A stretch of DNA of 64,000 nt, from NCBI GenBank assembly GCA_028697015.1, contig JAQVFW010000002.1, forward strand, positions 5,287-69,286, written 5' to 3'. This stretch comes from Minisyncoccota bacterium. GTDB lineage: Bacteria > Patescibacteriota > Minisyncoccia > Minisyncoccales > GWA2-38-27. Below the pieces are notes generated by a model. That model ran no database searches and was not told the origin of the DNA. It was given only the letters and a program-made list of their open reading frames with translations. Below, piece by piece: positions 2,291 to 24,724 of the stretch (the first letter of the stretch is position 1; every line of letters starts with the position of its first letter). A program made the translations under genes and the position numbers.

Positions 2291-3777
<1,487 letters not shown>

Positions 3778-8185: not shown

Positions 8186-9235
8186 ATGTCAGAAATTGAA
8201 TCCTTAAGAAAGGAATACAATGATATTTTAAATCAACTCGGCAATCCTGAGTTGATTTCTGACTGGAAAAAATTTGAAGATCTTTCCAAAAAGAAAAAAA
8301 AGCTGGAAAATATCATAGAAAAAAAAGAAGCTATTCTTCAAATAGAAAAGCAGATTGAAGAGAATAAGGCCATAATATCTTCTGAAGATATGGAACTTTT
8401 AACCTTGGCGGAAGCGGAAATAGGCACTTTAAGTCAAAAGAAAAGAGAAATTGAAAAAGAATTGAAAGATTTCTTAGAGGAAGAAAATTCTTCTGTCGAT
8501 CTTAATTCCGTTATTGTTGAAATAAGGGCTGGAACCGGTGGAGATGAAGCGGCTTTGTTTGCCGGAGACCTATTTAGAGCGTATCTAAAATATTGCGCTA
8601 AAAAAAACTGGTCTCATAAGGTCCTCGATTCAAACTCTACGACTATCGGAGGATTTAAAGAAGTTACTTTTGAAATAAAAGGAAATAATGTTTTTTCTCT
8701 TATGGAAAACGAGGGAGGAGTTCACAGAGTTCAAAGAATTCCGGAAACCGAAAAATCAGGAAGAGTGCATACGTCAACGGCAACGGTAGCCGTACTTCCC
8801 AAGCCGAAAGAGAAGAAAATTAATATAAGAACTGACGATTTAAAAATTGATTTCTTTAGAGCTTCGGGAGCAGGAGGTCAAAATGTCAACAAAAGAGAAA
8901 CTGCTGTAAGAATTACTCATTTACCATCAGGGGTTGTTGTTGTTTCTCAGACAGAGAGAAATCAGCTTCAAAATAAAGAAAACGCCCTATCTATTCTTGG
9001 AGCTAAGATAATGGAACAAAAAAGAAAACAAGAACAAAGCAGTGTTTCAAATCAAAGAAACAGTCAAATTGGTCTTGCTAAAAGAGTAGAAAAAATTAAA
9101 ACGTATAATTTTCCTCAAGACCGCCTCACTGACCACAGAATAAAAAAAAGCTGGCATGGCCTTCAAAGGATAATGGATGGCGATCTTGACGAGATTATAG
9201 AAACAACAAAAAAAGAGCTTCAGCTTATAGAATAA
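8186..9235 (+). CDS. prfA: Peptide chain release factor 1
   Basis: GGQ motif (SGAGGQNVNK) and PxT-type tripeptide region (QRIPETEKSGRVHTSTATVAV). Confidence 0.9.
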   Translation: MSEIESLRKEYNDILNQLGNPELISDWKKFEDLSKKKKKLENIIEKKEAILQIEKQIEENKAIISSEDMELLTLAEAEIGTLSQKKREIEKELKDFLEEENSSVDLNSVIVEIRAGTGGDEAALFAGDLFRAYLKYCAKKNWSHKVLDSNSTTIGGFKEVTFEIKGNNVFSLMENEGGVHRVQRIPETEKSGRVHTSTATVAVLPKPKEKKINIRTDDLKIDFFRASGAGGQNVNKRETAVRITHLPSGVVVVSQTERNQLQNKENALSILGAKIMEQKRKQEQSSVSNQRNSQIGLAKRVEKIKTYNFPQDRLTDHRIKKSWHGLQRIMDGDLDEIIETTKKELQLIE

Positions 9236-9287: not shown

Positions 9288-10679
9288 TTATGACGGTATG
9301 AATATAAGGCCACTGCAAGTATCTGTCATTGTACCTTGGTCAATAAAAACCTGAAGACAATTTATTCTTTGAACAATTTGATTTCCATAAAAAGCATAGC
9401 TTGATTTATTCCAATTTCCTCCTGCAAAATACTTTAACGCGGCGGTTCTCTCATTGTTTGACGAAGAAGAAAGATTATCCGATAAAAGAAGTCCGGAAGC
9501 AAGAAAAGAATCATTTATTTTCCAAGGATCAGCAATGCGTCCAAGCATATTAGTAAGCCGGCTCTTATAAAGATTCCATGTTGAAGGAATAAATTGAGCA
9601 GGTCCCATGGCTCCCCCATAACCGGGTATTCCAATCACAGGACAAGAAATCGGAGTAGAAAGTGAATTTCTTCCCAATTCTTTTGTAAGAATCAAAAACG
9701 GAGGCAAATCTCTTGTCGGGTGAATTCCATTTGAAAAAATCCTTCCGGAATTTATCCCTACAGATGATCCTGTCGATGCATCTTTGAGATAACATTGTCC
9801 GACATTTCTTCCAAGGGCCGATTCTTGGGTGATTATAGCAAGAAGAAAAGCTGGCCTTACACCGGTTAACTGTTGTACCCAGCGAGCCACTTCTAGCGCT
9901 TCTCCAAAGGTTGGTGTTTCCACATCGGGAATACCAACAAGTTCAAGCATTTTGCTTCTTATTTCTTCCGCTTTTTTTTCTAGTTCTTGTTTTTCTTTTA
10001 AATATTGCTGATACTGGGCCTCTGTCATTTTCAAAAAATCTTCCTGTTTTTTCCTTGCCGCTTCGCTCTCTTTCACCTGAAGAGCCTGCAATTGAACGGT
10101 TTTTTGCAAGGAATCTTTTTCGCCATCCAAAGATATTTTATGCCCTTCTAGATTAAATTTTAAATCTTTAATATCTTTTAATACTCCTTTATTTTTTAAA
10201 TTCAAAACTTCCAGATAAACAATATTATCAAAAAAATCAGAAATCGTTTCTCCTTGAAGAATTATCTCTATATATGATTTTTTATCTTCCTCTTCGGTAA
10301 TTCGCAAAATATCAATCAATTTTTCTTCCATCTCTCCTATCTTAACAGTTGTCTCCATTATGGACTTTTCTGTATCCTGGATTTTTAATCCCAAACTCTG
10401 AATAACCAAATTGCTTTGCCTTATTTGAAGATTAAGCTGATCTATTTTTCTTCTAATATTGCTTATTTGATACTGAAGAGTTTGTTTTTCCGCTTCCGTC
10501 TTTGTTATATCCTTATCGTATTTTAGAATTAATTCTTCAAGTTCTTTTAATTCTTTTTCAAGCTGGGCTCTTTCTTCTTCCTTATCAGCGGCAATTGTAA
10601 ACGGAAGTAAAGAAAAGAAAACAAAAAAAGCTAAAAAGAAAAATATAATCTTATGAATTTTCAGGTTCTTTTTCTTCAT
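9288..10679 (-). CDS. Secreted coiled-coil protein with C-terminal SLT-type lytic transglycosylase-like domain
   Basis: Signal peptide (MKKKNLKIHKIIFFFLAFFVFF), ~250 aa coiled coil, C-terminal AIITQESALGRN...GAMGPAQFIPSTW resembling the SLT ES...GLMQ...T motifs. Start chosen at second Met. Confidence 0.5.
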   Translation of the reverse strand: MKKKNLKIHKIIFFFLAFFVFFSLLPFTIAADKEEERAQLEKELKELEELILKYDKDITKTEAEKQTLQYQISNIRRKIDQLNLQIRQSNLVIQSLGLKIQDTEKSIMETTVKIGEMEEKLIDILRITEEEDKKSYIEIILQGETISDFFDNIVYLEVLNLKNKGVLKDIKDLKFNLEGHKISLDGEKDSLQKTVQLQALQVKESEAARKKQEDFLKMTEAQYQQYLKEKQELEKKAEEIRSKMLELVGIPDVETPTFGEALEVARWVQQLTGVRPAFLLAIITQESALGRNVGQCYLKDASTGSSVGINSGRIFSNGIHPTRDLPPFLILTKELGRNSLSTPISCPVIGIPGYGGAMGPAQFIPSTWNLYKSRLTNMLGRIADPWKINDSFLASGLLLSDNLSSSSNNERTAALKYFAGGNWNKSSYAFYGNQIVQRINCLQVFIDQGTMTDTCSGLIFIPS

Positions 10680-11283
10680 CTTCTTTCTCTTTTTTAATCT
10701 TCTCAACGGATTCTACGTCTTCTTCAACCGGTTTTTCAAGTTCTTCTTCAACTTTTTGAGGCGGCTGAACGTTTGCAACTACTTCATCCGGCTCACGGAG
10801 TATTTTTACTCCTTCTCCTACAAAAAGATCTTTTATCGTTATTTCTTTTTCAAAATCTGTCAGAACGCTGACATCAACTTTAATTTCATGAGGAAGTTTT
10901 TCAGGCAGAGCTTTTACTTCAACTTCCTGTATTCCTTTTACAATTGTTCCTCCGAGATTTTTAACAGCTTCCGATTCTCCAAAAAAGACTATCGGTACCT
11001 GGGCTTCAACTTCTTTGTCCAGTATTGGCTGGTAAAAATCCACGTGAATGGGCTCCCCTGTCAAAGAATCTAAAGCTACTTCATGGATTAAGACCGGATG
11101 TTTTTTATCATCAATCAAAAGAGAAACAAGAGTGCTTTCCCCTGCTTTTTCATAAATATCATTGAATTCTTTCAAGTCAATTTCTATAGAAGATGTTTCA
11201 ATTTTTGGTCCGTATACAACTGCAGGGATACTGACTCCGTCTCTTTTTACTTTCTCTCTCTTTTTTGCATTTAAGGTAATCAT
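10651..11283 (-). CDS. rplY: 50S ribosomal protein L25/general stress protein Ctc (long form with acidic tail)
   Basis: MITLNAKKREKVKRDGVSIPAVVYGPK... L25 N-terminal domain. The 5' 93 nt of this gene are duplicated at 13870..13962. Confidence 0.85.
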   Translation of the reverse strand: MITLNAKKREKVKRDGVSIPAVVYGPKIETSSIEIDLKEFNDIYEKAGESTLVSLLIDDKKHPVLIHEVALDSLTGEPIHVDFYQPILDKEVEAQVPIVFFGESEAVKNLGGTIVKGIQEVEVKALPEKLPHEIKVDVSVLTDFEKEITIKDLFVGEGVKILREPDEVVANVQPPQKVEEELEKPVEEDVESVEKIKKEKEDEEKEPENS

Positions 11284-11318
11284 GATTTTAATTTGTGGTT
11301 CAAGTTAATAATGGTTTT

Positions 11319-11537
11319 TTATTCAACAATACTGATAATTTCAACCGGACACATATCAGCAGCGTCTTTTGCGCAAGATAATTCTTCAATATCAAGCTCT
11401 TCTTCCTTTTTATCATTGACTCTTTTTTTCCCGACCAGCTGGGCTTTTTCATCATCTCCTTTTTGAAAATATCTAGGACAATTTGACCAGCAAGAGCCGC
11501 AACTTATGCACTTTTCTCTATCAAGAATAATTTTCAT
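11319..11537 (-). CDS. 4Fe-4S single-cluster ferredoxin (copy 1)
   Basis: CISCGSCWSNCP ... MCPVE cysteine pattern, 72 aa. Confidence 0.7.
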   Translation of the reverse strand: MKIILDREKCISCGSCWSNCPRYFQKGDDEKAQLVGKKRVNDKKEEELDIEELSCAKDAADMCPVEIISIVE

Positions 11538-11557
11538 GTTGGTTCTTTAATTTTTTA

Positions 11558-11998
11558 TTATTTGATTTCAAAGCTATTGGAATAAATCCAAGAATCTTCG
11601 CTGAATAATTCTTCTTTAGCACAATTATTGCAATATGGAATAGCCAAGCGGTACGTGCCGTTCCCAAAAAGATCAAACATATCTATCTCGGCTTCAAATG
11701 CTTTAATTGATTTTTTAGGAATACAAACCTCTATAATGTCTTCTTTTGAGCAATGAATATATTCTGCTCTTTCCCATACTCCTTCTATCTCCATTTCTAT
11801 AAAATAAGGATTGCAGGAGGAAAAACAAACATTCTTTAAAGAGCTATTTATTATTTTTAAGGCCACAAACTGTCCTTTTTCATAACTGTTTTTGCTTGTT
11901 ATAACCTCTACTTCTCCTCTATATTTTGTAATAAAAGTCACCAAAGCGAAAATAAAGAGTATTGGGACTATAATGGCAATAATTAAAAGCCTCTTCAT
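11558..11998 (-). CDS. Hypothetical signal-anchored Cys-rich extracytoplasmic protein (copy 1)
   Basis: N-terminal TM/signal (LLIIAIIVPILFIFALVTFI), 8 Cys. No known domain. Confidence 0.4.
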   Translation of the reverse strand: MKRLLIIAIIVPILFIFALVTFITKYRGEVEVITSKNSYEKGQFVALKIINSSLKNVCFSSCNPYFIEMEIEGVWERAEYIHCSKEDIIEVCIPKKSIKAFEAEIDMFDLFGNGTYRLAIPYCNNCAKEELFSEDSWIYSNSFEIK

Positions 11999-12012
11999 CG
12001 TTTTCTATTCTA

Positions 12013-12840
12013 CTATATTTTTTTAAAGCTGTGAAGTGTTTTAATCTTTTCAATAACCCTTTTTTCTAGGACTTTTTCAGTTTTTTCAAGTATTTTATAG
12101 GGTTTAATCTCCTTTGAAGAAAGTTCTTTTTTTAAAGATTCTTTCCACACATTTCGAAGTTCCGTATTAATATTCGTTTTAACTATCCCTCTTTTTATAC
12201 AGTTTTTAATATCTTCATTCTTTAATCCCGAAGCGCCGTGCAAAACAAGAAAAATCTCAGTTTTTTTTCTTATTTCAGAAAGAAGATTAAGGTCAAGAGA
12301 TGGCATTTTGACATATACCCCGTGAACGTTACCAATAGAGATTGCTAAAAGATCAACATTTGTTTCTTTGACAAATCTTTCAACCTTAGAAAGAGAAGTA
12401 AAATCTTTTTTAGAAACAGAAGATTTATCCTTTATAACTCCAAGTTCTCCTTCAACAAGAACTCCTCTTTTTTTAGCATAACTTACCACTTCTTTTGTTC
12501 TTTTTATATTTTCATCAAAGGGAAGAAGAGAACCGTCATAATGGACAGAATCATATCCTATATCTACGGCTGTTTTTATAAAATCAAAGTTTTTTCCATG
12601 GTCTAAATTAAGAAAGACAGGAACATTATATTCTAAATTAATAATCTCTTTCATTACAAATGCTTCTTTTAATCCAAAAAACTTCCCTTCCCCTTCTGAG
12701 GTTCCTAATATTACAGGGCTTTCCATTTTTTTTGCCGCCCTGATTGTTGATTTCATTTGCTCAATAGTTGAAAAATTAAACTGGCCTACGGCAAATTTTT
12801 CTTTTTTCGCTTTTTCAAAATAAGAATGAAGGGATTTCAT
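12013..12840 (-). CDS. Class II fructose/tagatose-bisphosphate aldolase (FbaA/GatY family) (copy 1)
   Basis: FLVLHGASG zinc-aldolase motif. ~275 aa like the GatY/KbaY short class II aldolases. Confidence 0.75.
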   Translation of the reverse strand: MKSLHSYFEKAKKEKFAVGQFNFSTIEQMKSTIRAAKKMESPVILGTSEGEGKFFGLKEAFVMKEIINLEYNVPVFLNLDHGKNFDFIKTAVDIGYDSVHYDGSLLPFDENIKRTKEVVSYAKKRGVLVEGELGVIKDKSSVSKKDFTSLSKVERFVKETNVDLLAISIGNVHGVYVKMPSLDLNLLSEIRKKTEIFLVLHGASGLKNEDIKNCIKRGIVKTNINTELRNVWKESLKKELSSKEIKPYKILEKTEKVLEKRVIEKIKTLHSFKKI

Positions 12841-12858
12841 AAATAAGTATTTTTAATT

Positions 12859-13824
12859 TTAGAATTTTGACACTTTTACTTTGATTTTTTTAAAACTTTG
12901 GTTTTTTCTAAGAAGTCCGTTTTTTGCTCCCCAAAAACCGATAGTTGAAGAAGCATTAGCTGTTCCTCTTTGAATTGATTTTACTATGTCTTTTGAATAA
13001 ATGTATTCAGAAATAAACCCTGAAGAAAAAGCGTCTCCTGCTCCGGTTCTGTCTAATACCTTTGACTTTAAAGTTTTTGCTTCATAAAGAAAAGAGTTAT
13101 TTAAAACAACTGATCCCAAAGGGCCTTTTGTTATAACAATTATCCCTTTGTAAAACTCACTTATTCTTTTAAGAGCGCTTTTTTCGTCTTTATAAAGAAC
13201 ATTGGCAAGCATTGAAGCTTCTTCTTGATTTAATATTAAAATATCAATTTTCTTGATTATCTTTTTGATATTTTTTAAAGAAAGCTGGGAATTTCCGGGA
13301 TTTGCCGCAATTTTCATTCCTTTTTTTATTCCATAATCAACAAGAGAATTAAATTTCAAAGAGGCCTTTCCTGAAAGAGGGGCGAAATAAAGCCATTTTG
13401 CAAGCGGTAAGAAAATATTTTCTTTTCCCATTATTTCAGAAGCTCCCCTGTAAACCAATATTGTCCTGTCTTTGTCTTTGACGTTTAAAACAATTGACTG
13501 ATTAGTTTTCTTTTCCTTTGTTTTTTTAACCAAAGAAATGTTAACCTTCAGCTGTTTTAATTCTTTTAGAATATCTTCTCCTGCTTCGTCTTCTCCCACT
13601 TTTCCAAAATAAGCGGTTTTTAATCCCATATTTGCAAAAGTAACCGCGCAATTGGTTCCTCCTCCTCCGGTAAAATGATAAATATTTTCTACGTCTATCT
13701 TTGAACCTAAAGAAAGGTAAATCCCCTCTTTTGTTACGAGAGTTTTTTTAGTCGCAGATTTCAAATTCTTGCTTTTTAAAAAAGTGTCTCTTGAAGCAGA
13801 ACCGAATGTGATAATATCAAACAT
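12859..13824 (-). CDS. PfkB-family carbohydrate kinase (candidate phosphofructokinase/tagatose-6-P kinase) (copy 1)
   Basis: GGGGTNCA N-terminal GG motif and DRTGAGDAF PfkB signature 2. Adjacent to class II aldolase. Confidence 0.75.
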   Translation of the reverse strand: MFDIITFGSASRDTFLKSKNLKSATKKTLVTKEGIYLSLGSKIDVENIYHFTGGGGTNCAVTFANMGLKTAYFGKVGEDEAGEDILKELKQLKVNISLVKKTKEKKTNQSIVLNVKDKDRTILVYRGASEIMGKENIFLPLAKWLYFAPLSGKASLKFNSLVDYGIKKGMKIAANPGNSQLSLKNIKKIIKKIDILILNQEEASMLANVLYKDEKSALKRISEFYKGIIVITKGPLGSVVLNNSFLYEAKTLKSKVLDRTGAGDAFSSGFISEYIYSKDIVKSIQRGTANASSTIGFWGAKNGLLRKNQSFKKIKVKVSKF

Positions 13825-13830
13825 ATAATG

Positions 13831-13962
13831 CTATTTCTTTAATTTATCTTCTTTTTTGGCTACAAGAAGAGATGTTTCAATTTTTGGTCCGTATACAACT
13901 GCAGGGATACTGACTCCGTCTCTTTTTACTTTCTCTCTCTTTTTTGCATTTAAGGTAATCAT
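13831..13962 (-). pseudogene. Chimeric junction mini-ORF: rplY 5' fragment (31 codons) fused to last 12 codons of ppsA, created by the tandem duplication
   Basis: Translates MITLNAKKREKVKRDGVSIPAVVYGPKIETS + LLVAKKEDKLKK*. First part identical to the rplY N-terminus, second part identical to the ppsA C-terminus. Confidence 0.6.
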
Positions 13963-13997
13963 GATTTTAATTTGTGGTTCAAGTTAATAATGGTTTT

Positions 13998-14216
13998 TTA
14001 TTCAACAATACTGATAATTTCAACCGGACACATATCAGCAGCGTCTTTTGCGCAAGATAATTCTTCAATATCAAGCTCTTCTTCCTTTTTATCATTGACT
14101 CTTTTTTTCCCGACCAGCTGGGCTTTTTCATCATCTCCTTTTTGAAAATATCTAGGACAATTTGACCAGCAAGAGCCGCAACTTATGCACTTTTCTCTAT
14201 CAAGAATAATTTTCAT
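13998..14216 (-). CDS. 4Fe-4S ferredoxin (copy 2, identical)
   Basis: Identical translation to 11319..11537. Confidence 0.7.
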   Translation of the reverse strand: MKIILDREKCISCGSCWSNCPRYFQKGDDEKAQLVGKKRVNDKKEEELDIEELSCAKDAADMCPVEIISIVE

Positions 14217-14236
14217 GTTGGTTCTTTAATTTTTTA

Positions 14237-14677
14237 TTATTTGATTTCAAAGCTATTGGAATAAATCCAAGAATCTTCGCTGAATAATTCTTCTTTAGCA
14301 CAATTATTGCAATATGGAATAGCCAAGCGGTACGTGCCGTTCCCAAAAAGATCAAACATATCTATCTCGGCTTCAAATGCTTTAATTGATTTTTTAGGAA
14401 TACAAACCTCTATAATGTCTTCTTTTGAGCAATGAATATATTCTGCTCTTTCCCATACTCCTTCTATCTCCATTTCTATAAAATAAGGATTGCAGGAGGA
14501 AAAACAAACATTCTTTAAAGAGCTATTTATTATTTTTAAGGCCACAAACTGTCCTTTTTCATAACTGTTTTTGCTTGTTATAACCTCTACTTCTCCTCTA
14601 TATTTTGTAATAAAAGTCACCAAAGCGAAAATAAAGAGTATTGGGACTATAATGGCAATAATTAAAAGCCTCTTCAT
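14237..14677 (-). CDS. Hypothetical Cys-rich extracytoplasmic protein (copy 2, identical)
   Basis: Identical to 11558..11998. Confidence 0.4.
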   Translation of the reverse strand: MKRLLIIAIIVPILFIFALVTFITKYRGEVEVITSKNSYEKGQFVALKIINSSLKNVCFSSCNPYFIEMEIEGVWERAEYIHCSKEDIIEVCIPKKSIKAFEAEIDMFDLFGNGTYRLAIPYCNNCAKEELFSEDSWIYSNSFEIK

Positions 14678-14691
14678 CGTTTTCTATTCTA

Positions 14692-15519
14692 CTATATTTT
14701 TTTAAAGCTGTGAAGTGTTTTAATCTTTTCAATAACCCTTTTTTCTAGGACTTTTTCAGTTTTTTCAAGTATTTTATAGGGTTTAATCTCCTTTGAAGAA
14801 AGTTCTTTTTTTAAAGATTCTTTCCACACATTTCGAAGTTCCGTATTAATATTCGTTTTAACTATCCCTCTTTTTATACAGTTTTTAATATCTTCATTCT
14901 TTAATCCCGAAGCGCCGTGCAAAACAAGAAAAATCTCAGTTTTTTTTCTTATTTCAGAAAGAAGATTAAGGTCAAGAGATGGCATTTTGACATATACCCC
15001 GTGAACGTTACCAATAGAGATTGCTAAAAGATCAACATTTGTTTCTTTGACAAATCTTTCAACCTTAGAAAGAGAAGTAAAATCTTTTTTAGAAACAGAA
15101 GATTTATCCTTTATAACTCCAAGTTCTCCTTCAACAAGAACTCCTCTTTTTTTAGCATAACTTACCACTTCTTTTGTTCTTTTTATATTTTCATCAAAGG
15201 GAAGAAGAGAACCGTCATAATGGACAGAATCATATCCTATATCTACGGCTGTTTTTATAAAATCAAAGTTTTTTCCATGGTCTAAATTAAGAAAGACAGG
15301 AACATTATATTCTAAATTAATAATCTCTTTCATTACAAATGCTTCTTTTAATCCAAAAAACTTCCCTTCCCCTTCTGAGGTTCCTAATATTACAGGGCTT
15401 TCCATTTTTTTTGCCGCCCTGATTGTTGATTTCATTTGCTCAATAGTTGAAAAATTAAACTGGCCTACGGCAAATTTTTCTTTTTTCGCTTTTTCAAAAT
15501 AAGAATGAAGGGATTTCAT
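14692..15519 (-). CDS. Class II fructose/tagatose-bisphosphate aldolase (copy 2, identical)
   Basis: Identical to 12013..12840. Confidence 0.75.
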   Translation of the reverse strand: MKSLHSYFEKAKKEKFAVGQFNFSTIEQMKSTIRAAKKMESPVILGTSEGEGKFFGLKEAFVMKEIINLEYNVPVFLNLDHGKNFDFIKTAVDIGYDSVHYDGSLLPFDENIKRTKEVVSYAKKRGVLVEGELGVIKDKSSVSKKDFTSLSKVERFVKETNVDLLAISIGNVHGVYVKMPSLDLNLLSEIRKKTEIFLVLHGASGLKNEDIKNCIKRGIVKTNINTELRNVWKESLKKELSSKEIKPYKILEKTEKVLEKRVIEKIKTLHSFKKI

Positions 15520-15537
15520 AAATAAGTATTTTTAATT

Positions 15538-16503
15538 TTAGAATTTTGACACTTTTACTTTGATTTTTTTAAAACTTTGGTTTTTTCTAAGAAGTCCGTT
15601 TTTTGCTCCCCAAAAACCGATAGTTGAAGAAGCATTAGCTGTTCCTCTTTGAATTGATTTTACTATGTCTTTTGAATAAATGTATTCAGAAATAAACCCT
15701 GAAGAAAAAGCGTCTCCTGCTCCGGTTCTGTCTAATACCTTTGACTTTAAAGTTTTTGCTTCATAAAGAAAAGAGTTATTTAAAACAACTGATCCCAAAG
15801 GGCCTTTTGTTATAACAATTATCCCTTTGTAAAACTCACTTATTCTTTTAAGAGCGCTTTTTTCGTCTTTATAAAGAACATTGGCAAGCATTGAAGCTTC
15901 TTCTTGATTTAATATTAAAATATCAATTTTCTTGATTATCTTTTTGATATTTTTTAAAGAAAGCTGGGAATTTCCGGGATTTGCCGCAATTTTCATTCCT
16001 TTTTTTATTCCATAATCAACAAGAGAATTAAATTTCAAAGAGGCCTTTCCTGAAAGAGGGGCGAAATAAAGCCATTTTGCAAGCGGTAAGAAAATATTTT
16101 CTTTTCCCATTATTTCAGAAGCTCCCCTGTAAACCAATATTGTCCTGTCTTTGTCTTTGACGTTTAAAACAATTGACTGATTAGTTTTCTTTTCCTTTGT
16201 TTTTTTAACCAAAGAAATGTTAACCTTCAGCTGTTTTAATTCTTTTAGAATATCTTCTCCTGCTTCGTCTTCTCCCACTTTTCCAAAATAAGCGGTTTTT
16301 AATCCCATATTTGCAAAAGTAACCGCGCAATTGGTTCCTCCTCCTCCGGTAAAATGATAAATATTTTCTACGTCTATCTTTGAACCTAAAGAAAGGTAAA
16401 TCCCCTCTTTTGTTACGAGAGTTTTTTTAGTCGCAGATTTTAAATTCTTGCTTTTTAAAAAAGTGTCTCTTGAAGCAGAACCGAATGTGATAATATCAAA
16501 CAT
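15538..16503 (-). CDS. PfkB-family carbohydrate kinase (copy 2, identical protein)
   Basis: Identical to 12859..13824. Single-nt difference 3 nt upstream of the start codon. Confidence 0.75.
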   Translation of the reverse strand: MFDIITFGSASRDTFLKSKNLKSATKKTLVTKEGIYLSLGSKIDVENIYHFTGGGGTNCAVTFANMGLKTAYFGKVGEDEAGEDILKELKQLKVNISLVKKTKEKKTNQSIVLNVKDKDRTILVYRGASEIMGKENIFLPLAKWLYFAPLSGKASLKFNSLVDYGIKKGMKIAANPGNSQLSLKNIKKIIKKIDILILNQEEASMLANVLYKDEKSALKRISEFYKGIIVITKGPLGSVVLNNSFLYEAKTLKSKVLDRTGAGDAFSSGFISEYIYSKDIVKSIQRGTANASSTIGFWGAKNGLLRKNQSFKKIKVKVSKF

Positions 16504-16509
16504 ATTATG

Positions 16510-18933
16510 CTATTTCTTTAATTTATCTTCTTTTTTGGCTACAAGAAGATGGGTTTTAATAATCATATTGGGATTTATTGAAATGCTTTCAATCCCCTCT
16601 TCAACCAGAAAATCTGCAAAATCAGAATAAGTAGAAGGAGCTTCTCCGCATATTCCAATATATTTGTTTCTTTTTTTGCAAATTTTAATAACTTCTCCAA
16701 TTATCTTTTTGACCGCTTTGTTTCTTTCATCTCCGATATAGGATATTCTGCCATTGTCTCTATCTAGTCCCAATGTAAGTTGAGCAAGATCATTGCTGCC
16801 AATACTAAAGCCGTCAAAAATTGACAAAAAATCATCCGCTAAGATAATATTTGATGGAATTTCACACATCATATAAACTTTAAAATTATCTTCATTAAGG
16901 CCCTCTTTCCTTATTATTTCCATAACTTTTTTTCCTTCTTCAACCGTTCTGCAGAAAGGAACCATTACATTTACGTTTTTTAAGCCGAAAACATTTCTTA
17001 CTCTTTTTATGGCTTGGCATTCCATTTTAAAGGCCGGCATGAAATTTTTATCAATATATCGGCAAGCCCCTCTGAATCCAAGCATCGGATTTGATTCTTC
17101 GTTTTCAAAAATTTCACCACCGATAAGATTCTTGTATTCATTGGTTTTAAAGTCCGAAAATCTGACAATAACCTCTTTTGGATAAAAAGCAGCTCCAATT
17201 TTGGCGATTCCTTCTGCCAGTTCTTTTATAAAAAACTCTTTCTTGTCTTTATGTTCTACGGTAATTTCTTTAATCTGCTTTATTATTTTCTGAATTTCTG
17301 AATTTGAAAGAAAAATGTTTTTCCTTATTTCAGATTTAGGATTCTTTATTTGTTTGTAATGATACAAAGCCAAAGGATGGACTCTTACTTTTTCTGCGAT
17401 AATAAATTCTTCTCTTGCAAGACCAACTCCCTGATTTGGCAAAAAAGAAGATCTAAATGCTATTTCAGGAGCTCCAATATTAACCATGATTTTGGTCTTA
17501 ATTTTAGGAAAACTGCCAAGATTCTGCCTTTTTACTTTATAGGAAATTTTACCTTTAAAAATCCTTCCGTTTAATCCTTCTGTACAATCAACTGTGATTT
17601 CTTCTCCGTCTTTAAGAATATCTGTAGCTTTATGAGTTCCAACAATAGCCGGAATTCCAAGTTCTCTTGCGACAATCGCGGCATGGCAACTTTTTCCTCC
17701 TTCATTTGTTACAATAGCACTTGCAATACGCATAATAGGCAGCCAGTCAGGGTCCGTCATTTTAGTCACTAAAACTTCTCCTTTCTCAAAATCTTTCATT
17801 TTGGAAATTTCCCTTACAATCTTAACTTTTCCAATTCCAATTTTTTCCCCTACGGCAATTCCCGTAAGAAATGGCTTCTTTTTAGTGTTCAGTTGATATT
17901 CTTCATAAAAGCTTGCTGTTTTTGAGGCATGAACTGTTTCCGGTCTTGATTGTACTATGAAAAGCTCTCCCGTTTTCCCATCTTTTGCCCATTCAATATC
18001 TTGAGGCATCCATTTGCCGGCTCTTTTTGAATAGTGGTTTTCTATAATCACTGCCCACCTTGCAAGGGTCAATATTTCTTTTTCTGTAAGAGAAAATTTT
18101 AATTGGTCTTTAATGCTGACTTTTTTCTCTTTCAGTCCCCCCTTTGTAGAATATTCATATTTTAAATGTTTTCTTCCAAGGTTTTTTGTTATTATAGAAT
18201 CATGGCCTTTTTCAAGAGTCGGCTTAAAAACATAAAATTCATCGGGAGTCACTTTTCCTTTGACTATCATTTCTCCTATTCCAAAAATAGAATTTATTAA
18301 AACAACATTCTTAAACCCGGTTTCAGTATCAAGGGTAAACATAATTCCTGAAGAAGCGAGATCTGAACGGATCATTTTTAAAACGCCAACGGAAAGGGCA
18401 AACTTCAAATGGGATATTTTCTTCTCTTCCCTATAGGCGATAACTCTGTCGTTAAAAGTTGAAGCAATACATTTTTTAACAACGGAAAGCAAGTTCTTTG
18501 TGCCTCTTACGTTTAAAAATGTTTCAAATTGGCCAGCAAAAGAAGCGTTAGGCATGTCTTCACAGACAGCGGAAGATCTTACAGCGACATCGTCTCCTTT
18601 TAGTTTTTCATACGCATTTATAATATCTTCTTCCAATTCTTTGGAAAAATAGCCTTTTCTAATTCTTTCTCTTGCTTTCTTTCCAAACTCCTGCAAATCT
18701 TCTATTTTTTTCAGGTCGTATTTTTTAATCAGCGCTTTTAATTCTTTATCTATGCCATTTACTTTCATAAAATCCAAATAGGCTTTTGTCGTAATAGCAA
18801 AGCCCTCCGGAATATTTATGCCTTCCTTTAAAAAAGCGCCATACATTTCACCAAGAGAAGCGTTTTTCCCTCCAACTTGCAAAATATTATCGTAACCTAT
18901 TTCATCAAACCATAAAATGTTTTTTTCTTTCAT
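16510..18933 (-). CDS. ppsA: Phosphoenolpyruvate synthase (pyruvate, water dikinase)
   Basis: N-terminal ATP-grasp GGKNASLGEM, phosphohistidine domain TNEGGKSCHAAIVARELGIPAIVG, C-terminal PEP-utilising domain. 807 aa. Confidence 0.85.
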   Translation of the reverse strand: MKEKNILWFDEIGYDNILQVGGKNASLGEMYGAFLKEGINIPEGFAITTKAYLDFMKVNGIDKELKALIKKYDLKKIEDLQEFGKKARERIRKGYFSKELEEDIINAYEKLKGDDVAVRSSAVCEDMPNASFAGQFETFLNVRGTKNLLSVVKKCIASTFNDRVIAYREEKKISHLKFALSVGVLKMIRSDLASSGIMFTLDTETGFKNVVLINSIFGIGEMIVKGKVTPDEFYVFKPTLEKGHDSIITKNLGRKHLKYEYSTKGGLKEKKVSIKDQLKFSLTEKEILTLARWAVIIENHYSKRAGKWMPQDIEWAKDGKTGELFIVQSRPETVHASKTASFYEEYQLNTKKKPFLTGIAVGEKIGIGKVKIVREISKMKDFEKGEVLVTKMTDPDWLPIMRIASAIVTNEGGKSCHAAIVARELGIPAIVGTHKATDILKDGEEITVDCTEGLNGRIFKGKISYKVKRQNLGSFPKIKTKIMVNIGAPEIAFRSSFLPNQGVGLAREEFIIAEKVRVHPLALYHYKQIKNPKSEIRKNIFLSNSEIQKIIKQIKEITVEHKDKKEFFIKELAEGIAKIGAAFYPKEVIVRFSDFKTNEYKNLIGGEIFENEESNPMLGFRGACRYIDKNFMPAFKMECQAIKRVRNVFGLKNVNVMVPFCRTVEEGKKVMEIIRKEGLNEDNFKVYMMCEIPSNIILADDFLSIFDGFSIGSNDLAQLTLGLDRDNGRISYIGDERNKAVKKIIGEVIKICKKRNKYIGICGEAPSTYSDFADFLVEEGIESISINPNMIIKTHLLVAKKEDKLKK

Positions 18934-18943
18934 ACAATATTCC

Positions 18944-19483
18944 TTATTTTTTAAAACACTTTGGGCAAAAGAAAGATGCTTTATAATAATTTTCTCCCAC
19001 AGATAAATCTTTAATCAAATTTAAAACAAGGTCTGTTGAACAATGTCTGCAAGAAAGCTGGAAATATCCGAAATCTTTTAATAAATCCTTAGCCCCTAAA
19101 AGGTCTTCCTTTAAAGACAACTTGTATGACTTTTGTTCGCCCATGGCAATTCTAACCCTTGAGACAACTTCGTTTGGAGTAACTCTGTCCATTGAAATAA
19201 AATCTTTGGCGTTAAGTTCAATGGCTTTTTCTTTCTCATCCTTTCTTTCTGTGGAAGAAAAAATAATAACGGGAATATTTTTAATGCTTTTTAAAATATC
19301 ATAACCGCTTATCTCTTCCGTATCTATATCAGCAAGAACAATATCCGGTTTTTCTTTTTCAACCAAATGTAAAACATCTCTGCCGTTATTGGTTTGAAAA
19401 ACCTTAAATCCGGCCGCTTCAAAAATCTCGCAATAAGCGCTTCTCATTATATTATTTTTGATGGCAACAATCAGTTTTTTCAT
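18944..19483 (-). CDS. Atypical receiver-domain (CheY-like) protein with C-terminal Cys4 zinc-ribbon
   Basis: Receiver-like fold (PDIVLADIDTEEISGYDILK) lacking the N-terminal DD pair. C-terminal CRHC...CPKC. Confidence 0.5.
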   Translation of the reverse strand: MKKLIVAIKNNIMRSAYCEIFEAAGFKVFQTNNGRDVLHLVEKEKPDIVLADIDTEEISGYDILKSIKNIPVIIFSSTERKDEKEKAIELNAKDFISMDRVTPNEVVSRVRIAMGEQKSYKLSLKEDLLGAKDLLKDFGYFQLSCRHCSTDLVLNLIKDLSVGENYYKASFFCPKCFKK

Positions 19484-19501
19484 TCTTCTATTCTAACTTT
19501 T

Positions 19502-21442
19502 CTATTTTTGTTTATCAAGGATTTTCTTTATTTGGTTAACGCTTTCGGGATTTGCAAGAGTACTAAGGTCTCCAAGTTCCTCTTTTGAAAAAAGCTTTCT
19601 TAATATTCTTCTCATTATTTTCCCGGACCTTGTTTTTGGCAAGTCATTTATAATATATATTTTTTTGGGAGTTGCAATTGGTCCTATCTCTTTTCTAATT
19701 TGGAAGATTATCTCTTTTTCAATTTCGCTTGTTTCTCTCTCTTTTTTTAAAACAACAAAAGCAACAGGCATTTCCCCTTTTATTTCATCGGGAATTCCAA
19801 CCACGGCGCATTCCACTACATCCTTATGCAAAGAAATAGCACTTTCCATTTCTCCAGTAGACAATCTGTGTCCGGCTGTTTTTATAACATCATCAGCTCT
19901 TCCAATTATTCTTATAAGGCCGTTTTTATCTCTTAGGGCCTTGTCGCTTGTAAAATATATTTCTTTTCCGTATTGGTTAAAATACGTCTCAATGTATTTT
20001 TTTTCATCCTTATATACTCCCCTCAAAAGACCCGGAGCAAAAGGAGGAAGAACAACTAAATTTCCTTGTTTTTCTGGAAGGCAAGAATTCCCATTATCGT
20101 CTAAAATATCCGTTTTTATTCCCGGAAATGGCAATCCGGCAAAAGTTGGCTTAAACGGACCGATTCCAGGCAAAGATGTTATAAGTATTCCCCCTGTTTC
20201 CGTTTGCCACCAGGTATCAACCAAGGGGCATTTTCCCTTTCCTACTTCTTTTAGATACCAATTCCAAGCAGAATGGTCTATCGGTTCTCCGACAGAACCA
20301 AGAACTCTTAATGTTTCCATTTTATGCTTTTTAACAATTTCTGATGCATTTTTTTCAAACATCCTGATTGCTGTTGGAGAAGTATAAAAAGCGGTTACTT
20401 TGTATTTTTCTATAATCTTGCACCATCTGCCAGAATCTGGAAAGTCAGGAGTTCCTTCATACATGACAAAAGTAGAGCCGGAAAGAAGCGGACCGTAAAT
20501 AGTATAAGTATGGCCTGTAATCCATCCAACATCGGCCATTGACCAAAAAACATCGTCATCTTTTAAATTGAAAATCCATTTACTTGTAAATTTTGCCTGA
20601 ACCGTATAGCCGGCGCAAGTATGGACGATTCCCTTTGGTTTGCCCGTAGAACCGCTGGTATAAAGTATAAAAAGAGTATCTTCCGAATTCATCGCTTTTG
20701 AGTCGCATTTGTCTTTTTCTTTATTTAAAAGATCATCCCACCATAAATCTCTTAAAAAGGTCATAGAAACTTTATTTCTCGCTCGCTTTACGACAATTAT
20801 TTTTTCCACTTTAGTTTCCAATACTCCTTCATCAGCATTTTTTTTCAAATCAATAATTTTACCTCTTCTATAATATCCGTCGGCAGTTATTAATATCTTT
20901 GCCTTAGTATCTTCTAATCTCACTTTCAAAGCTGAAGGCGAAAAAGCGGAAAAGACAACTACATGAATAGCTCCGATTTTGGCGCAAGCAAGCATTGAAA
21001 TAGCAACTTCCGGAATCATAGGAAGATAAATTCCCACCCTATCCCCCTTTTTAACTCCTAGCTTTTTTAAAGCATTAGCGGCCTTGTTTACTTCTTTGTA
21101 AAGCTGGTAATAGGTGAAAATTCTTTCTTTCTCTTTTTCGTTTTCCGGCTCAAAAATAAGGGCAATTTTATCTTTGTTTTTCTCCAAATTTTTATCAAGA
21201 GCATTTTCTGTAATGTTAATTTTTCCTTTATCAAACCACTTAAAAAAAGGCGGTTTATGAATAAACGCCTTTTGCCATTTTTTTCTCCAAAAAAGCTCCT
21301 TTGCAAGCTTTTCCCAAAATAAAACAGGATCTTCTGTCGCTTTTTTATAAATCGAATTGCTATTTATCAAGGCCTCTTTTTTAAAATCTTCCGAAGGATA
21401 ATAAAAGAGGCCTTTTTTAATAAGATTTTTTCTTTTTGGCAT
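19502..21442 (-). CDS. acs: Acetyl-CoA synthetase (AMP-forming)
   Basis: [14 protein letters not shown]-binding motif, [10 protein letters not shown]-terminal lysine motif ([11 protein letters not shown]). 646 aa. Confidence 0.9.
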
Positions 21443-21451
21443 TTATAAAAG

Positions 21452-22462
21452 TTACTTCTTTATCTTTTTGCCCACATATTCTCCAAATTCAGAAAGACGA
21501 CAAGCATATGCATATTCATTATCATACCAGGCAACAACTTTTATAATATTTTCATTAACCATTAAAGAAGGAATATCTATTATGGCAGAATTTGGATTAC
21601 CAATGTAATCTGTAGAAACAAGAGGCGCTTCCTCGACCGAAAAAATTCCTTTCAGATTATTCTCCGCATTTTTAAATAATCTAATAAGTTCTTCTTTTGT
21701 CGTCTTTTTTTCCGTTTCAACAAAAAGATCAAGAAGAGAAACAATTGGTGTCGGAACCCTAAGAGCAATTCCGTCAATTCTGCCATAAAGTTCGGGAATA
21801 ACCTTTGAAATAGCTTTTGCAGCTCCGGTAGAAGTGGGAATAATATTTAAGGCCGCAGCTCTTGCTCTTCTTAAATCTTTGTGCGGAAGGTCAAGGATTT
21901 TTTGATCGTTGGTATAACTATGAACCGTAGTCATAAATCCTTTTTTAATAACAAGAGCGTCGTTTATTATTTTAGAAACAGGAGCAAGGCAATTTGTAGT
22001 ACAGGAACCCATATCTACAATTTTATCCTTCTTTGGATCAAACTTATCTTCATTTACTCCTAAAATATAGCTGGGAATTTCACTGTCTTTTGAAGGAGCT
22101 GAAATAATCACCTGTTTTGCTCCAGATGCTATATGCTTATTTGAACCTTCAAGGGAATTAAAATGTCCAGTACATTCAAAAACAATATCAACTTCCAATT
22201 TTTCCCAAGGAAGATTTGAAGGGTCCGTTTCAGAAAAAACCAAAAACTCCTTATCGTCAACAGATATTCCGTCTTTTAAAGGAATAATTTTTCTATTATA
22301 TGTTCGATAAACAGAATCATATTTAAGAAGATGAGCTAACGTTTCATTATTTGTTAAATCGTTGATTGCCACAACCTCAATTTCAGGATGTTTATCAAGC
22401 AATATTTTAAATAAAGAACGGCCTATTCTTCCAAAACCGTTAATCGCTATTTTAATTGGCAT
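21452..22462 (-). CDS. gap: Glyceraldehyde-3-phosphate dehydrogenase
   Basis: INGFGRIGR NAD-binding and SCTTNCLAP active-site motifs. Confidence 0.9.
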   Translation of the reverse strand: MPIKIAINGFGRIGRSLFKILLDKHPEIEVVAINDLTNNETLAHLLKYDSVYRTYNRKIIPLKDGISVDDKEFLVFSETDPSNLPWEKLEVDIVFECTGHFNSLEGSNKHIASGAKQVIISAPSKDSEIPSYILGVNEDKFDPKKDKIVDMGSCTTNCLAPVSKIINDALVIKKGFMTTVHSYTNDQKILDLPHKDLRRARAAALNIIPTSTGAAKAISKVIPELYGRIDGIALRVPTPIVSLLDLFVETEKKTTKEELIRLFKNAENNLKGIFSVEEAPLVSTDYIGNPNSAIIDIPSLMVNENIIKVVAWYDNEYAYACRLSEFGEYVGKKIKK

Positions 22463-22471
22463 ACTTTAATT

Positions 22472-22504
22472 TCCCAAGCAGACCGAAAAAAGATCTGCTT
22501 GGGA
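22472..22504 (-). other. 11-bp perfect hairpin 10 nt upstream of the gap start codon
   Basis: TCCCAAGCAGA-11 nt loop-TCTGCTTGGGA. No U-run on the minus strand. Confidence 0.4.
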
Positions 22505-22521
22505 ATACATTTTTTAGGTAA

Positions 22522-22938
22522 TTAAAACTGAGGAAGTAAATCTTGGTCAATCTCGGTTCCTTGTGGAATCATCCATTGATCAGGAGAAAATTCGCTTATT
22601 ACTATCCCTTCCGGAAAGAAAACTTTTCCATCTTTTGTAATATATGAAGAAAAAGGATTCCCAGCAACAAGAATATCAACTTTGTACATCCCTCTTTCTT
22701 CCACAATATTAACAAAAGTTGCAAGGCTCTGTCCCTGAAGCATCATATTGTTAATAAAGTCCATGGCTACTTCTTTTGCTTCATCTTTTGAAAGAGCAGC
22801 GCCCATTTCTGTTCCCGTTTGAGATTGTTCTTGTGACTGATAGCCAAGGTAAATAAAAAATCCCAAAATTACTATACCGATAGAGATAATTATTGCCGGC
22901 AACAAACTTTTTGTTTTGTCCATATTTTTTTTCGACAA
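22522..22938 (-). CDS. Membrane-anchored extracytoplasmic protein, paralog of the N-terminal domain of 23274..23936
   Basis: Shares MDFINNMMLQGQ...YK(V/I)(D/E)I(L/I)V(A/E)G(N/Q)PFSSY(I/L)TKDGK(V/F)FFPE with the neighbouring fused protein. Confidence 0.45.
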   Translation of the reverse strand: MSKKNMDKTKSLLPAIIISIGIVILGFFIYLGYQSQEQSQTGTEMGAALSKDEAKEVAMDFINNMMLQGQSLATFVNIVEERGMYKVDILVAGNPFSSYITKDGKVFFPEGIVISEFSPDQWMIPQGTEIDQDLLPQF

Positions 22939-23004
22939 TTAAGGCCCCGTGGTAATAAATAGCAAGAAGCGCCAAAAGCCGAAATATTAATATTATTTAT
23001 TTTT

Positions 23005-23238
23005 TTAAAGTCCCAATAATTGGGATATTTTTTCTTTATCAAATCCTATTACAATTTCCCCGCCTATATCAAGAACGGGCACACCCATCTGACCGGACTT
23101 GCTTATCATTTCTTCTGCCGCTTTTTCGTCCGCAGAAACGTCAATCTCTTCAAATTCAATATTATTATCCTTCAAAAAGTTTTTGACAGTTACACAGTAC
23201 GGACAAACAGGAGTAGTATATACGAGAATTTTTTCCAT
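23005..23238 (-). CDS. Glutaredoxin (CPYC active site)
   Basis: MEKILVYTTPVCPYCVTVKNFL...GQMGVPVL. Start taken at internal ATG (the listed ORF begins with TTG). Confidence 0.7.
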   Translation of the reverse strand: MEKILVYTTPVCPYCVTVKNFLKDNNIEFEEIDVSADEKAAEEMISKSGQMGVPVLDIGGEIVIGFDKEKISQLLGL

Positions 23239-23273
23239 GATTTTTATTGAAATTAAACTTTTCTGACCTTTAA

Positions 23274-23936: not shown

Positions 23937-24030
23937 ATTTTTATTATTTTTATTATTTTTATTTTACGCCCTCTGCATTATATTATCATAATTATTTTAC
24001 AAGTGCAAGAATTGTTATTTATTGCAATAT

Positions 24031-24717: not shown

Positions 24718-24724
24718 GGCATTT

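What the first reader, a model, noticed from the sequence alone, without database searches (positions are those of the whole stretch)
11191..16548. Near-perfect 2.68-kb tandem duplication of a ferredoxin / secreted protein / class II aldolase / PfkB-kinase cassette
The two adjacent 2679-bp blocks are identical apart from at least one substitution (13827 a vs 16506 t, three nt upstream of the PfkB start codon). All four encoded proteins are identical. The unit duplicates the two central glycolytic steps (PfkB-type kinase plus class II FBP/TBP aldolase) in a genome that is otherwise streamlined. The breakpoints fall inside ppsA and rplY, the signature of a genuine segmental tandem duplication rather than two diverged paralogous operons. 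Such events are rare in tiny genomes and usually transient, pointing to recent gene-dosage amplification. The alternative is an assembly artefact.
Basis: seen in the sequence. Interest (0 to 1): 0.7.

Follow-up and report, generated by a model that had tools for sequence, protein, structure and literature searches.

The report
Strain-limited tandem duplication, sugar-kinase/aldolase cassette
A 2.68-kb block of four genes really is written twice in a row in this small-genome (CPR/Patescibacteria) contig. Every other assembly of the same species has it once, and the two "mutations" between the copies are alleles of a co-existing strain, so it is at most a strain-level, possibly transient duplication that passed through a mixed-strain assembly.

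Summary
Window 11191-13869 equals 13870-16548 (period 2679), with exactly two mismatches (13762 C/16441 T, synonymous; 13827 A/16506 T, at -3 of pfkB). The breakpoints lie in rplY codon 31 and 12 codons before the ppsA stop, and the junction makes an in-frame 43-aa rplY'-'ppsA ORF.

- **Not a species feature.** Seven contiguous assemblies of the same species (99.3-99.9% identical) carry one copy, and none of six sibling NCBI MAGs has the junction.
- **The differences are not new mutations.** Both are linked alleles of a second strain haplotype, found together in single-copy contigs L013 and L014. Both lie within 108 nt of the junction, and copy 1 switches back to the majority haplotype further in. 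This is the pattern expected from a de Bruijn path through a mixed-strain graph, so the identity of the interiors and the copy number of two are uninformative.
- **The junction is probably in real reads.** An independent Logan contig (SRR22315504, 2680 nt) is exactly the shared unit, ending at both boundaries. The parental breakpoints share AGAAGATG (p≈0.02).

Best reading: a strain- or subpopulation-level tandem duplication with almost no junction homology (about 0.5). An artefact remains plausible (about 0.3). PfkB specificity is unresolved, so "PFK" is an inference. Low-to-moderate interest.

The parts
11191..13869 (.). Copy 1 of the 2679-nt unit (the rplY-proximal copy). Its junction-proximal end carries haplotype-B alleles.
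13870..16548 (.). Copy 2 of the unit (the ppsA-proximal copy), majority haplotype A throughout.
13860..13880 (.). Novel junction GGCTACAAGAAG|AGATGTTTC (13869|13870). It has a 1-nt overlap and sits 2 nt out of register with an 8-nt word shared by the parental sites.
13831..13962 (-). Chimeric in-frame ORF of 43 aa: rplY codons 1-31 fused to the last 12 codons of ppsA plus its stop. It ends 6 nt before pfkB copy 1, as the native ppsA does before copy 2.
   Evidence: not on record elsewhere
12859..13824 (-). PfkB-family sugar kinase, copy 1 (321 aa)
12013..12840 (-). Class II ketose-bisphosphate aldolase, copy 1 (275 aa)
11558..11998 (-). 146-aa protein with an N-terminal hydrophobic segment and a weak Ig-like (Big_14) hit, copy 1
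11319..11537 (-). Single-cluster 4Fe-4S ferredoxin, copy 1 (72 aa)
15538..16503 (-). PfkB-family sugar kinase, copy 2
14692..15519 (-). Class II aldolase, copy 2
14237..14677 (-). 146-aa Ig-like protein, copy 2
13998..14216 (-). Ferredoxin, copy 2
10651..11283 (-). Intact rplY (bL25/Ctc). Its first 93 nt (11191-11283) are part of the unit.
16510..18933 (-). Intact ppsA (PEP synthase). Its last 39 nt (16510-16548) are part of the unit.
13762..13762 (.). Difference 1: C here, T at 16441. Synonymous in Leu21 of PfkB. The copy-1 allele is strain haplotype B.
13827..13827 (.). Difference 2: A here, T at 16506, at -3 of the pfkB ATG. The copy-1 allele is strain haplotype B.
11188..11195 (.). AGAAGATG at the rplY parental breakpoint. 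The same word occurs at 16544-16551 at the ppsA breakpoint.
   Evidence: p≈0.019 by resampling

Best explanation
A head-to-tail duplication junction (the end of the unit in rplY codon 31 joined to its start 39 nt before the ppsA stop) exists in DNA of one strain or subpopulation of this Patescibacteria species, in one sample. It most likely arose by RecA-independent illegitimate recombination or replication template switching. An 8-nt word (AGAAGATG) shared by the two sites probably helped, and the join finished 2 nt out of register.

A tandem duplication leaves ppsA and rplY intact. It doubles the dose of pfkB, fba, the Ig-like protein and the ferredoxin within one co-directional gene array, in which the scan found no terminator-like sites between the genes. 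It also creates a 43-aa in-frame rplY'-'ppsA ORF that gives pfkB copy 1 the same 46-nt upstream context as copy 2.

The contig as printed is a consensus walk through a mixed-strain assembly graph: ppsA, majority haplotype A, unit, junction, haplotype-B alleles, unit walked again, rplY. Three things therefore do not follow from the contig: the identity of the interiors, the copy number of two, and the assignment of both copies to one genome.

Shown: the repeat, the junction anatomy, the single-copy state in all other assemblies, the strain origin of the two differences, and fork-delimited unit L007. Inferred: that the junction is chromosomal, the mechanism, the dosage effect and the assembler behaviour.
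For: -
- Logan contig L007 (SRR22315504) is 2680 nt and aligns to 16549-13870 and to 13870-11191. It is exactly the shared stretch, as expected for a unitig bounded by forks at both duplication boundaries.
- The parental breakpoints share an 8-nt word, p≈0.019. That fits a polymerase or recombination event rather than an arbitrary concatenation of contig ends.
- Seven contiguous single-copy assemblies span ppsA to rplY at 99.3-99.9% identity: L001, L002, L005, L010, L011, L013 and L017. Many more cross one boundary without a fork.
- Both copy differences are the linked alleles of haplotype B (L013, L014). They lie 43 and 108 nt from the boundary, and copy 1 carries haplotype-A alleles from 13597 onward.
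- Sibling MAGs are short-read scaffolds with 100-N gaps at strain-variable zones.
- No terminator-like sites were found between the genes of the unit.
- Non-HR duplications with 0-3 bp microhomology are documented in bacteria (bioRxiv 10.64898/2026.05.22.727201).
Against: - No reads could be examined.
- The junction 30-mer is absent from GTDB representative genomes and from JGI metagenome contigs, and the chimeric ORF is on record nowhere.
- Only one of four sibling runs (SRR22315504-07) shows forks at the boundaries. L005 (run -06) crosses both boundaries, L009 (run -05) crosses the ppsA boundary and L004 (run -07) crosses the rplY boundary, none with a fork.
- L007 proves forks, not the unit-to-unit adjacency itself, and it may come from the same reads as the window.
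- If the window came from long reads, the mosaic copy 1 would be real and the 'identical by construction' argument would fall.
Confidence: 0.5

Rival explanations
1. Artefact: no genome carries the duplication. A few chimeric library molecules (template switching in vitro at the AGAAGATG similarity), or an erroneous graph connection, closed a cycle around the unit. A repeat-resolving assembler then made the minimal walk that uses every edge (in, unit, back-edge, unit, out), which prints the unit twice.
For: - The duplication is absent from every other assembly of the species, including six sibling MAGs and three of four sibling runs.
- The junction was not found in two public collections.
- The copies differ only within 108 nt of the junction, and there by alleles of a second strain, so the contig is demonstrably not a single-clone sequence.
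- In-vitro chimeras also favour short homologies.
Against: - L007 shows the forks survived graph cleaning in a second, independent assembler.
- From my own knowledge of such assemblers, both normally remove weak chimeric connections, so the junction probably has appreciable coverage.
- The junction is linked to two haplotype-B alleles over 108 nt, which implies reads or long k-mers spanning it.
Confidence: 0.3
2. One reading: one dominant clonal genome carries exactly the printed structure. That is a very recent two-copy duplication whose copies differ by two changes and which is maintained by selection for a higher PfkB/aldolase dose.
For: The contig itself, the L007 forks, the in-frame junction that preserves the pfkB upstream context, and the intact flanking genes.
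Against: - The two changes coincide in both site and base with linked standing alleles. With 48 variable sites among 2680 positions in the unit, two new mutations doing this by chance has probability of about (48/2680 x 1/3)^2 ≈ 4e-5. They must therefore have been imported.
- An import patch in copy 1 needs a crossover inside the 43 nt between 13828 and 13870.
- Both changes falling within 108 nt of one end has p≈0.002-0.007 under random placement.
- No sibling assembly has the duplication.
Confidence: 0.15
3. The unit also exists in another context, either as a 2679-bp circle or inserted elsewhere in a co-occurring replicon. That would produce the same forks, and the tandem layout would be a misreading of them.
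For: A circle and a tandem duplication give the same junction sequence, and L007 alone cannot tell them apart.
Against: - The unit contains no replication or mobility gene.
- Its ends lie inside rplY and ppsA, not at element ends.
- No retrieved contig shows the unit with foreign flanks.
- A non-replicating circle should not reach assembly-level abundance.
Confidence: 0.05

Closest known systems
Non-homologous (short-junction or microhomology) tandem duplications and gene amplification in bacteria, as studied in Salmonella, E. coli, Acinetobacter and Pseudomonas fluorescens SBW25
   Same: Head-to-tail copies, a single novel join point, no long flanking repeat, 0-1 nt of in-register homology with a nearby short similarity, intact flanking genes, presence in only some genomes of a population, and expected instability through recombination between the copies (literature).
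   Different: This case is seen only in a metagenome-derived contig of an uncultured CPR bacterium. Read depth, junction frequency, copy number and any selective agent are unknown. The unit is small (2.7 kb), and the junction is 2 nt out of register with the shared 8-mer.
De Bruijn graph repeat or loop artefacts and strain-chimeric contigs in metagenome assemblies
   Same: The differences between the copies lie only within about one long k-mer of the boundary and are alleles of a co-occurring strain. The interiors are identical. Sibling assemblies fragment at strain-variable sites.
   Different: A pure artefact needs no support in reads. Here a second assembler's contig ends at both boundaries (L007), and the parental sites share a non-random 8-mer.
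E. coli Pfk-2 (PfkB) with class II FbaA: kinase and aldolase as consecutive glycolytic steps
   Same: A PfkB-fold kinase lies next to a class II ketose-bisphosphate aldolase, inside a cluster that also holds ppsA, acs, GAPDH, phosphoglycerate mutase and enolase. The acs-RR-ppsA-pfkB-fba order is kept in a Ca. Nealsonbacteria MAG at 47-64% amino-acid identity.
   Different: The kinase scores best to ribokinase-type models and below all equivalog cut-offs. The 1-PFK and Pfk-2 type models match only its C-terminal part. The nearest solved structures are S. aureus ribokinase and MJ0406, not Pfk-2. Its substrate is unknown.

Membership tests
Tandem segmental duplication (non-HR type) | Two adjacent head-to-tail copies of one segment | tested here: met
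   11191-13869 equals 13870-16548, 2677 of 2679 positions identical
Tandem segmental duplication (non-HR type) | One novel join of the unit's end to its start; flanking genes each keep one intact copy | tested here: met
   Junction at 13869|13870; rplY and ppsA are intact; rplY'-'ppsA chimeric ORF
Tandem segmental duplication (non-HR type) | No extended direct repeat at the parental boundaries (otherwise it would be the HR type) | tested here: met
   Only a 1-nt overlap, plus an 8-nt word offset by 2 nt
Tandem segmental duplication (non-HR type) | Ancestral single-copy arrangement in close relatives | tested here: met
   Seven contiguous single-copy contigs at 99.3-99.9% identity
Tandem segmental duplication (non-HR type) | Reads spanning the junction, and about 2x depth over the unit | not testable with these tools
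   Indirect only: L007 is a 2680-nt contig ending at both boundaries. No reads or coverage are available.
Assembly artefact / strain-chimeric contig | Copy differences confined to about one k-mer from the boundary and matching alleles of another strain | tested here: met
   Both differences are 43 and 108 nt from 13870. The alleles are those of L013/L014, and copy 1 reverts to haplotype A by 13597.
Assembly artefact / strain-chimeric contig | No support for the junction outside the one assembly | tested here: inconclusive
   The junction 30-mer gives 0 hits in two collections, and the chimeric ORF is not on record. However, L007 shows forks at both boundaries.
Diverged paralogous operons | Appreciable divergence between the copies, with both copies conserved in relatives | tested here: not met
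   99.93% identity between the copies; relatives have one copy
Class II ketose-bisphosphate aldolase (PF01116 / TIGR00167) | Score above the curated cut-offs over the full length | tested here: met
   PF01116 scores 281.7 bits (cut-off 25.5) and TIGR00167 scores 242.7 (cut-off 215.6). The FBA equivalog TIGR01859 scores 263, below its cut-off of 343.
6-phosphofructokinase of the PfkB family (Pfk-2-like) | Match to a PFK or 1-PFK equivalog model above its cut-off, or closest similarity to characterised PFKs | tested here: not met
   TIGR03828 scores 53.9 (cut-off 292) and TIGR03168 scores 64.6 (cut-off 216). The best hit is ribokinase TIGR02152 at 120 (cut-off 300). The top PDB hits are 3ry7 (ribokinase) and 2c49 (MJ0406). 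Only membership of the general PfkB family (PF00294, 151.7 bits) is established.

The most novel reading that the evidence does not exclude
A natural population of an ultra-small CPR bacterium carries, at appreciable frequency, a selected amplification of a PfkB-kinase/class II aldolase module. CPR genomes usually lack a recognisable phosphofructokinase, and this kinase may be the 'missing' one. The in-frame junction ORF would preserve translational coupling to the second pfkB. That would be an in-situ example of dosage adaptation in a streamlined genome.
Probability: 0.15. Interest if true: 0.5.

Novelty: new member of a known kind. Interest (0 to 1): 0.25.

Why it matters
If real, this would be a snapshot of gene amplification in an uncultured, genome-reduced bacterium. 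Amplification is a common but rarely captured adaptive mechanism. It would also draw attention to a conserved ppsA-pfkB-fba module that could supply the phosphofructokinase step reported as largely absent from CPR genomes (PMC7304191).

In practice it is mostly a caution. In metagenome contigs, a near-identical tandem repeat whose few differences sit next to the junction and match another strain's alleles cannot be dated, and its copies cannot be counted, from the sequence alone.

Tried and rejected
- **Junction search.** An exact search for the 30-mer GGCTACAAGAAGAGATGTTTCAATTTTTGG found nothing in GTDB representative genomes or in JGI metagenome contigs.
- **Chimeric ORF look-up.** The 43-aa chimeric ORF is not on record as an exact product.
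- **Related loci.** The search for related loci with PfkB gave one locus in genome contigs (Ca. Nealsonbacteria, 49% identity). It therefore offered no survey of recurrent duplications.
- **Literature.** A search for the run and assembly accessions found nothing, so the assembler and read type of the source remain unknown.
- **Source contig.** The window's own source contig was never returned by the look-ups. Searches found only sibling assemblies, and read a third contig from a 50-200 kb block that was not shown.
- **Diverged paralogues.** Rejected: the copies are 99.93% identical and relatives have one copy.
- **Blunt concatenation of two overlapping contigs.** Rejected as unlikely: L007 has forks at the same bases, the parental sites share a non-random 8-mer, and there are no Ns.
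- **A mobile element carrying the unit.** Rejected: the unit has no mobility genes and its ends lie inside housekeeping genes.
- **Start of L004.** L004 (SRR22315507) starts right after the -3 SNP. I considered this as a second sign of the junction, but it is ambiguous, because the contig runs through the rplY boundary and through the second SNP.


Full report
**1. Observation**

A position-by-position comparison at period 2679 shows that window 11191-13870 equals 13870-16549. The unit is 2679 nt with a 1-nt overlap at the join, so copy 1 is 11191-13869 and copy 2 is 13870-16548. There are exactly two mismatches.
- 13827 A / 16506 T lies 3 nt upstream of the pfkB ATG.
- 13762 C / 16441 T was not reported. 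It is the third base of Leu21 of PfkB (TTG versus TTA) and is synonymous.

All genes are on the minus strand. In transcription order they are:
- ppsA (16510-18933);
- pfkB (15538-16503), fba (14692-15519), a 146-aa protein (14237-14677) and a ferredoxin (13998-14216);
- the first 93 nt of rplY (13870-13962), joined to the last 39 nt of ppsA (13831-13869);
- pfkB (12859-13824), fba (12013-12840), the 146-aa protein (11558-11998) and the ferredoxin (11319-11537);
- intact rplY (10651-11283).

These coordinates come, and the four protein pairs are identical. Pfam and NCBIfam confirm a single-cluster 4Fe-4S ferredoxin, a class II ketose-bisphosphate aldolase, a PfkB-family kinase, bL25/Ctc and PEP synthase. 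The 146-aa protein has a hydrophobic N-terminus and only a sub-threshold Ig-like hit. No other large repeat occurs in the 64 kb.

**2. Junction anatomy**

The join fuses rplY codons 1-31 in frame to the last 12 codons of ppsA. This gives a 43-aa ORF (13831-13962) that ends at the ppsA stop, 6 nt before pfkB copy 1. Both pfkB copies therefore have the same 46 nt upstream, apart from the -3 difference.

The two parental sites share the word AGAAGATG (11188-11195 and 16544-16551). A shared word of at least 8 nt within ±12 nt of two random points of this window occurs with p≈0.019. The join is nevertheless 2 nt out of register with that word (CAAGAAGAGATGTTT rather than CAAGAAGATGTTT). In-register homology is therefore 1 nt. 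There is no long flanking repeat.

This is the anatomy of an illegitimate, non-HR join. It could equally be made by a polymerase switching templates in a cell or in a library preparation. No terminator-like sites were found between the genes of the unit, so both copies would sit in one co-directional transcription array.

**3. The same species elsewhere**

Exact-protein look-ups recovered about 30 contigs of the same species, 99.1-99.9% identical in DNA, from NCBI MAGs, ENA, JGI and Logan assemblies (alignments).

Seven contigs run uninterrupted from ppsA to rplY with one copy of the unit:
- L001 (ERZ27250894)
- L002 (GCA_028705355.1)
- L005 (SRR22315506)
- L010 (JGI 3300028603)
- L011 (JGI 3300015214)
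- L013 (SRR29792792)
- L017 (GCA_028715565.1)

L016 (GCA_028690715.1) is also single copy but has a 100-N gap inside the unit. Many others cross one boundary without a fork. None of six sibling MAGs carries the junction. The junction 30-mer has no exact match in GTDB representative genomes or in JGI metagenome contigs, and the chimeric ORF is on record nowhere.

A distant relative, a Ca. Nealsonbacteria MAG at 47-64% amino-acid identity, keeps the order acs-RR-ppsA-pfkB-fba as far as its contig end. That contig stops inside fba, so copy number cannot be read from it. The duplication is therefore not a feature of the species, and single copy is the ancestral state.

**4. One independent sign of the junction**

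Logan contig L007 (run SRR22315504) is 2680 nt long. It aligns end to end with 16549-13870 (1 mismatch) and with 13870-11191 (3 mismatches). It is exactly the stretch shared by the two contexts, to the base at both ends.

In a k-mer graph this is what a repeat node bounded by forks at both duplication boundaries looks like. The simplest cause is that junction k-mers are present in those reads. There are three limits to this evidence.
- It proves forks, not the unit-to-unit adjacency itself.
- The run may be the very sample from which the window was assembled. If so, the assembler is independent but the DNA is not.
- The three sibling runs show no fork where their contigs cross a boundary. L005 (run -06) crosses both, L009 (run -05) crosses the ppsA side, and L004 (run -07) crosses the rplY side.

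**5. The two differences are strain alleles, not new mutations**

Aligning all contigs shows that the copy-2 alleles belong to the majority haplotype A. On the minus strand these read CATAATATG and AATTTAAAA. The copy-1 alleles (CATTATATG and AATTTGAAA) occur together in single-copy contigs L013 and L014. That second haplotype, B, differs from the window's unit at about 16 further sites.

Copy 1 carries haplotype-B alleles only at the two sites nearest the junction, 43 and 108 nt from 13870. From the next diagnostic site (13597) onward it carries haplotype-A alleles. With 48 variable sites in the 2680-nt unit, two new mutations reproducing known sites and bases has probability of about 4e-5. 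Both falling within 108 nt of one end has p≈0.002-0.007.

The contig therefore combines two strain haplotypes. The pattern is what a graph assembler produces when a junction linked to a minority haplotype merges into a repeat node that is then walked twice. In that case the identity of the interiors and the figure of two copies follow from the method. This is my inference.

The sibling MAGs are short-read scaffolds that break or carry N gaps at strain-variable zones. The window's own assembler is unknown. If long reads were used, copy 1 is a genuine recombinant. That would require a crossover within the 43 nt between 13828 and 13870. It is possible, given the abundant mosaicism among strains visible, but it is less parsimonious.

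**6. What it most likely is**

| Reading | Confidence |
|---|---|
| A real junction in one strain or subpopulation, represented by a strain-mixed consensus contig | about 0.5 |
| An artefact: chimeric molecules or an erroneous edge closing a loop that the assembler walked | about 0.3 |
| A fixed clonal duplication exactly as printed | about 0.15 |
| A circle, or a second genomic context for the unit | about 0.05 |

If the junction is real, it arose by RecA-independent illegitimate recombination or template switching near a short similarity. The duplication doubles the dose of four genes without disrupting ppsA or rplY. It should be lost readily by recombination between the 2.68-kb copies (established knowledge on bacterial duplications; reviews found, and non-HR junctions with 0-3 bp microhomology). 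Persistence at appreciable frequency would therefore suggest selection. That has not been tested.

**7. Function of the cassette**

The aldolase passes the ketose-bisphosphate aldolase subfamily cut-off but not the FBA equivalog cut-off. The kinase is a general PfkB-family member. Its best model is ribokinase, below cut-off. The 1-PFK and Pfk-2 models match only its C-terminal part. The nearest solved structures are S. aureus ribokinase and MJ0406.

The genomic context favours a role in hexose-phosphate metabolism. The neighbourhood holds enolase, phosphoglycerate mutase, GAPDH, acs, a response regulator and ppsA, and the pfkB-fba adjacency is conserved in a distant CPR relative. CPR genomes are reported to lack PFK in nearly all lineages (PMC7304191). 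'PfkB as PFK' is therefore an attractive lead, but it is not shown. Across strains pfkB varies almost only synonymously (1-13 nt changes giving 0-2 amino-acid changes), so the gene is under purifying selection.

**8. Comparison with what is known, and verdict**

The closest known kind is a non-homologous (short-junction) tandem duplication or amplification in bacteria. The structural criteria are met. The read-level criteria (junction reads and depth) could not be tested. The rival kind, a strain-chimeric graph artefact, also has its diagnostic pattern met.

This is at best a new instance of a well-known type of event, in an unusual organism, with a useful methodological lesson. Interest is 0.25. 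Mapping reads from SRR22315504-07 or outward-facing PCR would settle it.

Noticed in passing
window 14827-16532 versus 13870-14826 (same positions in copy 1): Strain polymorphism is concentrated in pfkB and the 5' two-thirds of fba: 48 variable sites among about 20 contigs. The 146-aa gene and the ferredoxin gene are invariant at the nucleotide level in 19-20 contigs. Three sibling MAGs break or carry a 100-N gap at exactly 15818..15129. pfkB changes are almost all synonymous.
   Followed up: partly
window 12013-26500; L036 1-6449: The region is a glycolysis/gluconeogenesis supercluster: enolase, phosphoglycerate mutase, glutaredoxin, GAPDH, acetyl-CoA synthetase, a response regulator, ppsA, pfkB and fba. 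The order acs-RR-ppsA-pfkB-fba is kept in a Ca. Nealsonbacteria MAG at 47-64% amino-acid identity. The ribokinase-like PfkB is a candidate for the PFK step reported missing from most CPR genomes.
   Followed up: partly
window 2289-3776 (-), 2149-2196 / 3808-3855, 1369-1443 (-): A full-length 16S rRNA gene (1373 bits, no insertion) is bracketed by a 48-nt inverted repeat with 79% complementarity, presumably the precursor processing stem. tRNA-Ile(GAT) follows it, and the 23S gene would lie beyond the window start.
   Followed up: partly
window 58869-58994 (-): Ribosomal protein L10 leader (RF00557, 49.2 bits, gathering score 44).
   Followed up: no
window 13831-13962 (-): The junction ORF is in frame only because the join is 2 nt out of register with the shared 8-mer. 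An in-register join would have shifted the frame. The chance expectation is 1 in 3, so this may mean nothing, but it keeps the ppsA-stop/pfkB-start arrangement for copy 1.
   Followed up: partly
L016 9094-9193 and 15626-15725 (GCA_028690715.1): This sibling MAG has two gaps in the region, which truncate GAPDH, pfkB and fba in its annotation. The gap at 15626-15725 was read as 100 Ns. The one at 9094-9193 is inferred from a 100-nt hole in the alignment. The truncated gene calls are an assembly effect, not biology.
   Followed up: yes
(look-up of window 9291-10679): Three contigs carry the window's exact 463-aa protein, but only two were shown. The third, from a 50-200 kb block, is probably the window's own source contig and was not returned, so its provenance (assembler, sample) stays unknown.
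   Followed up: no
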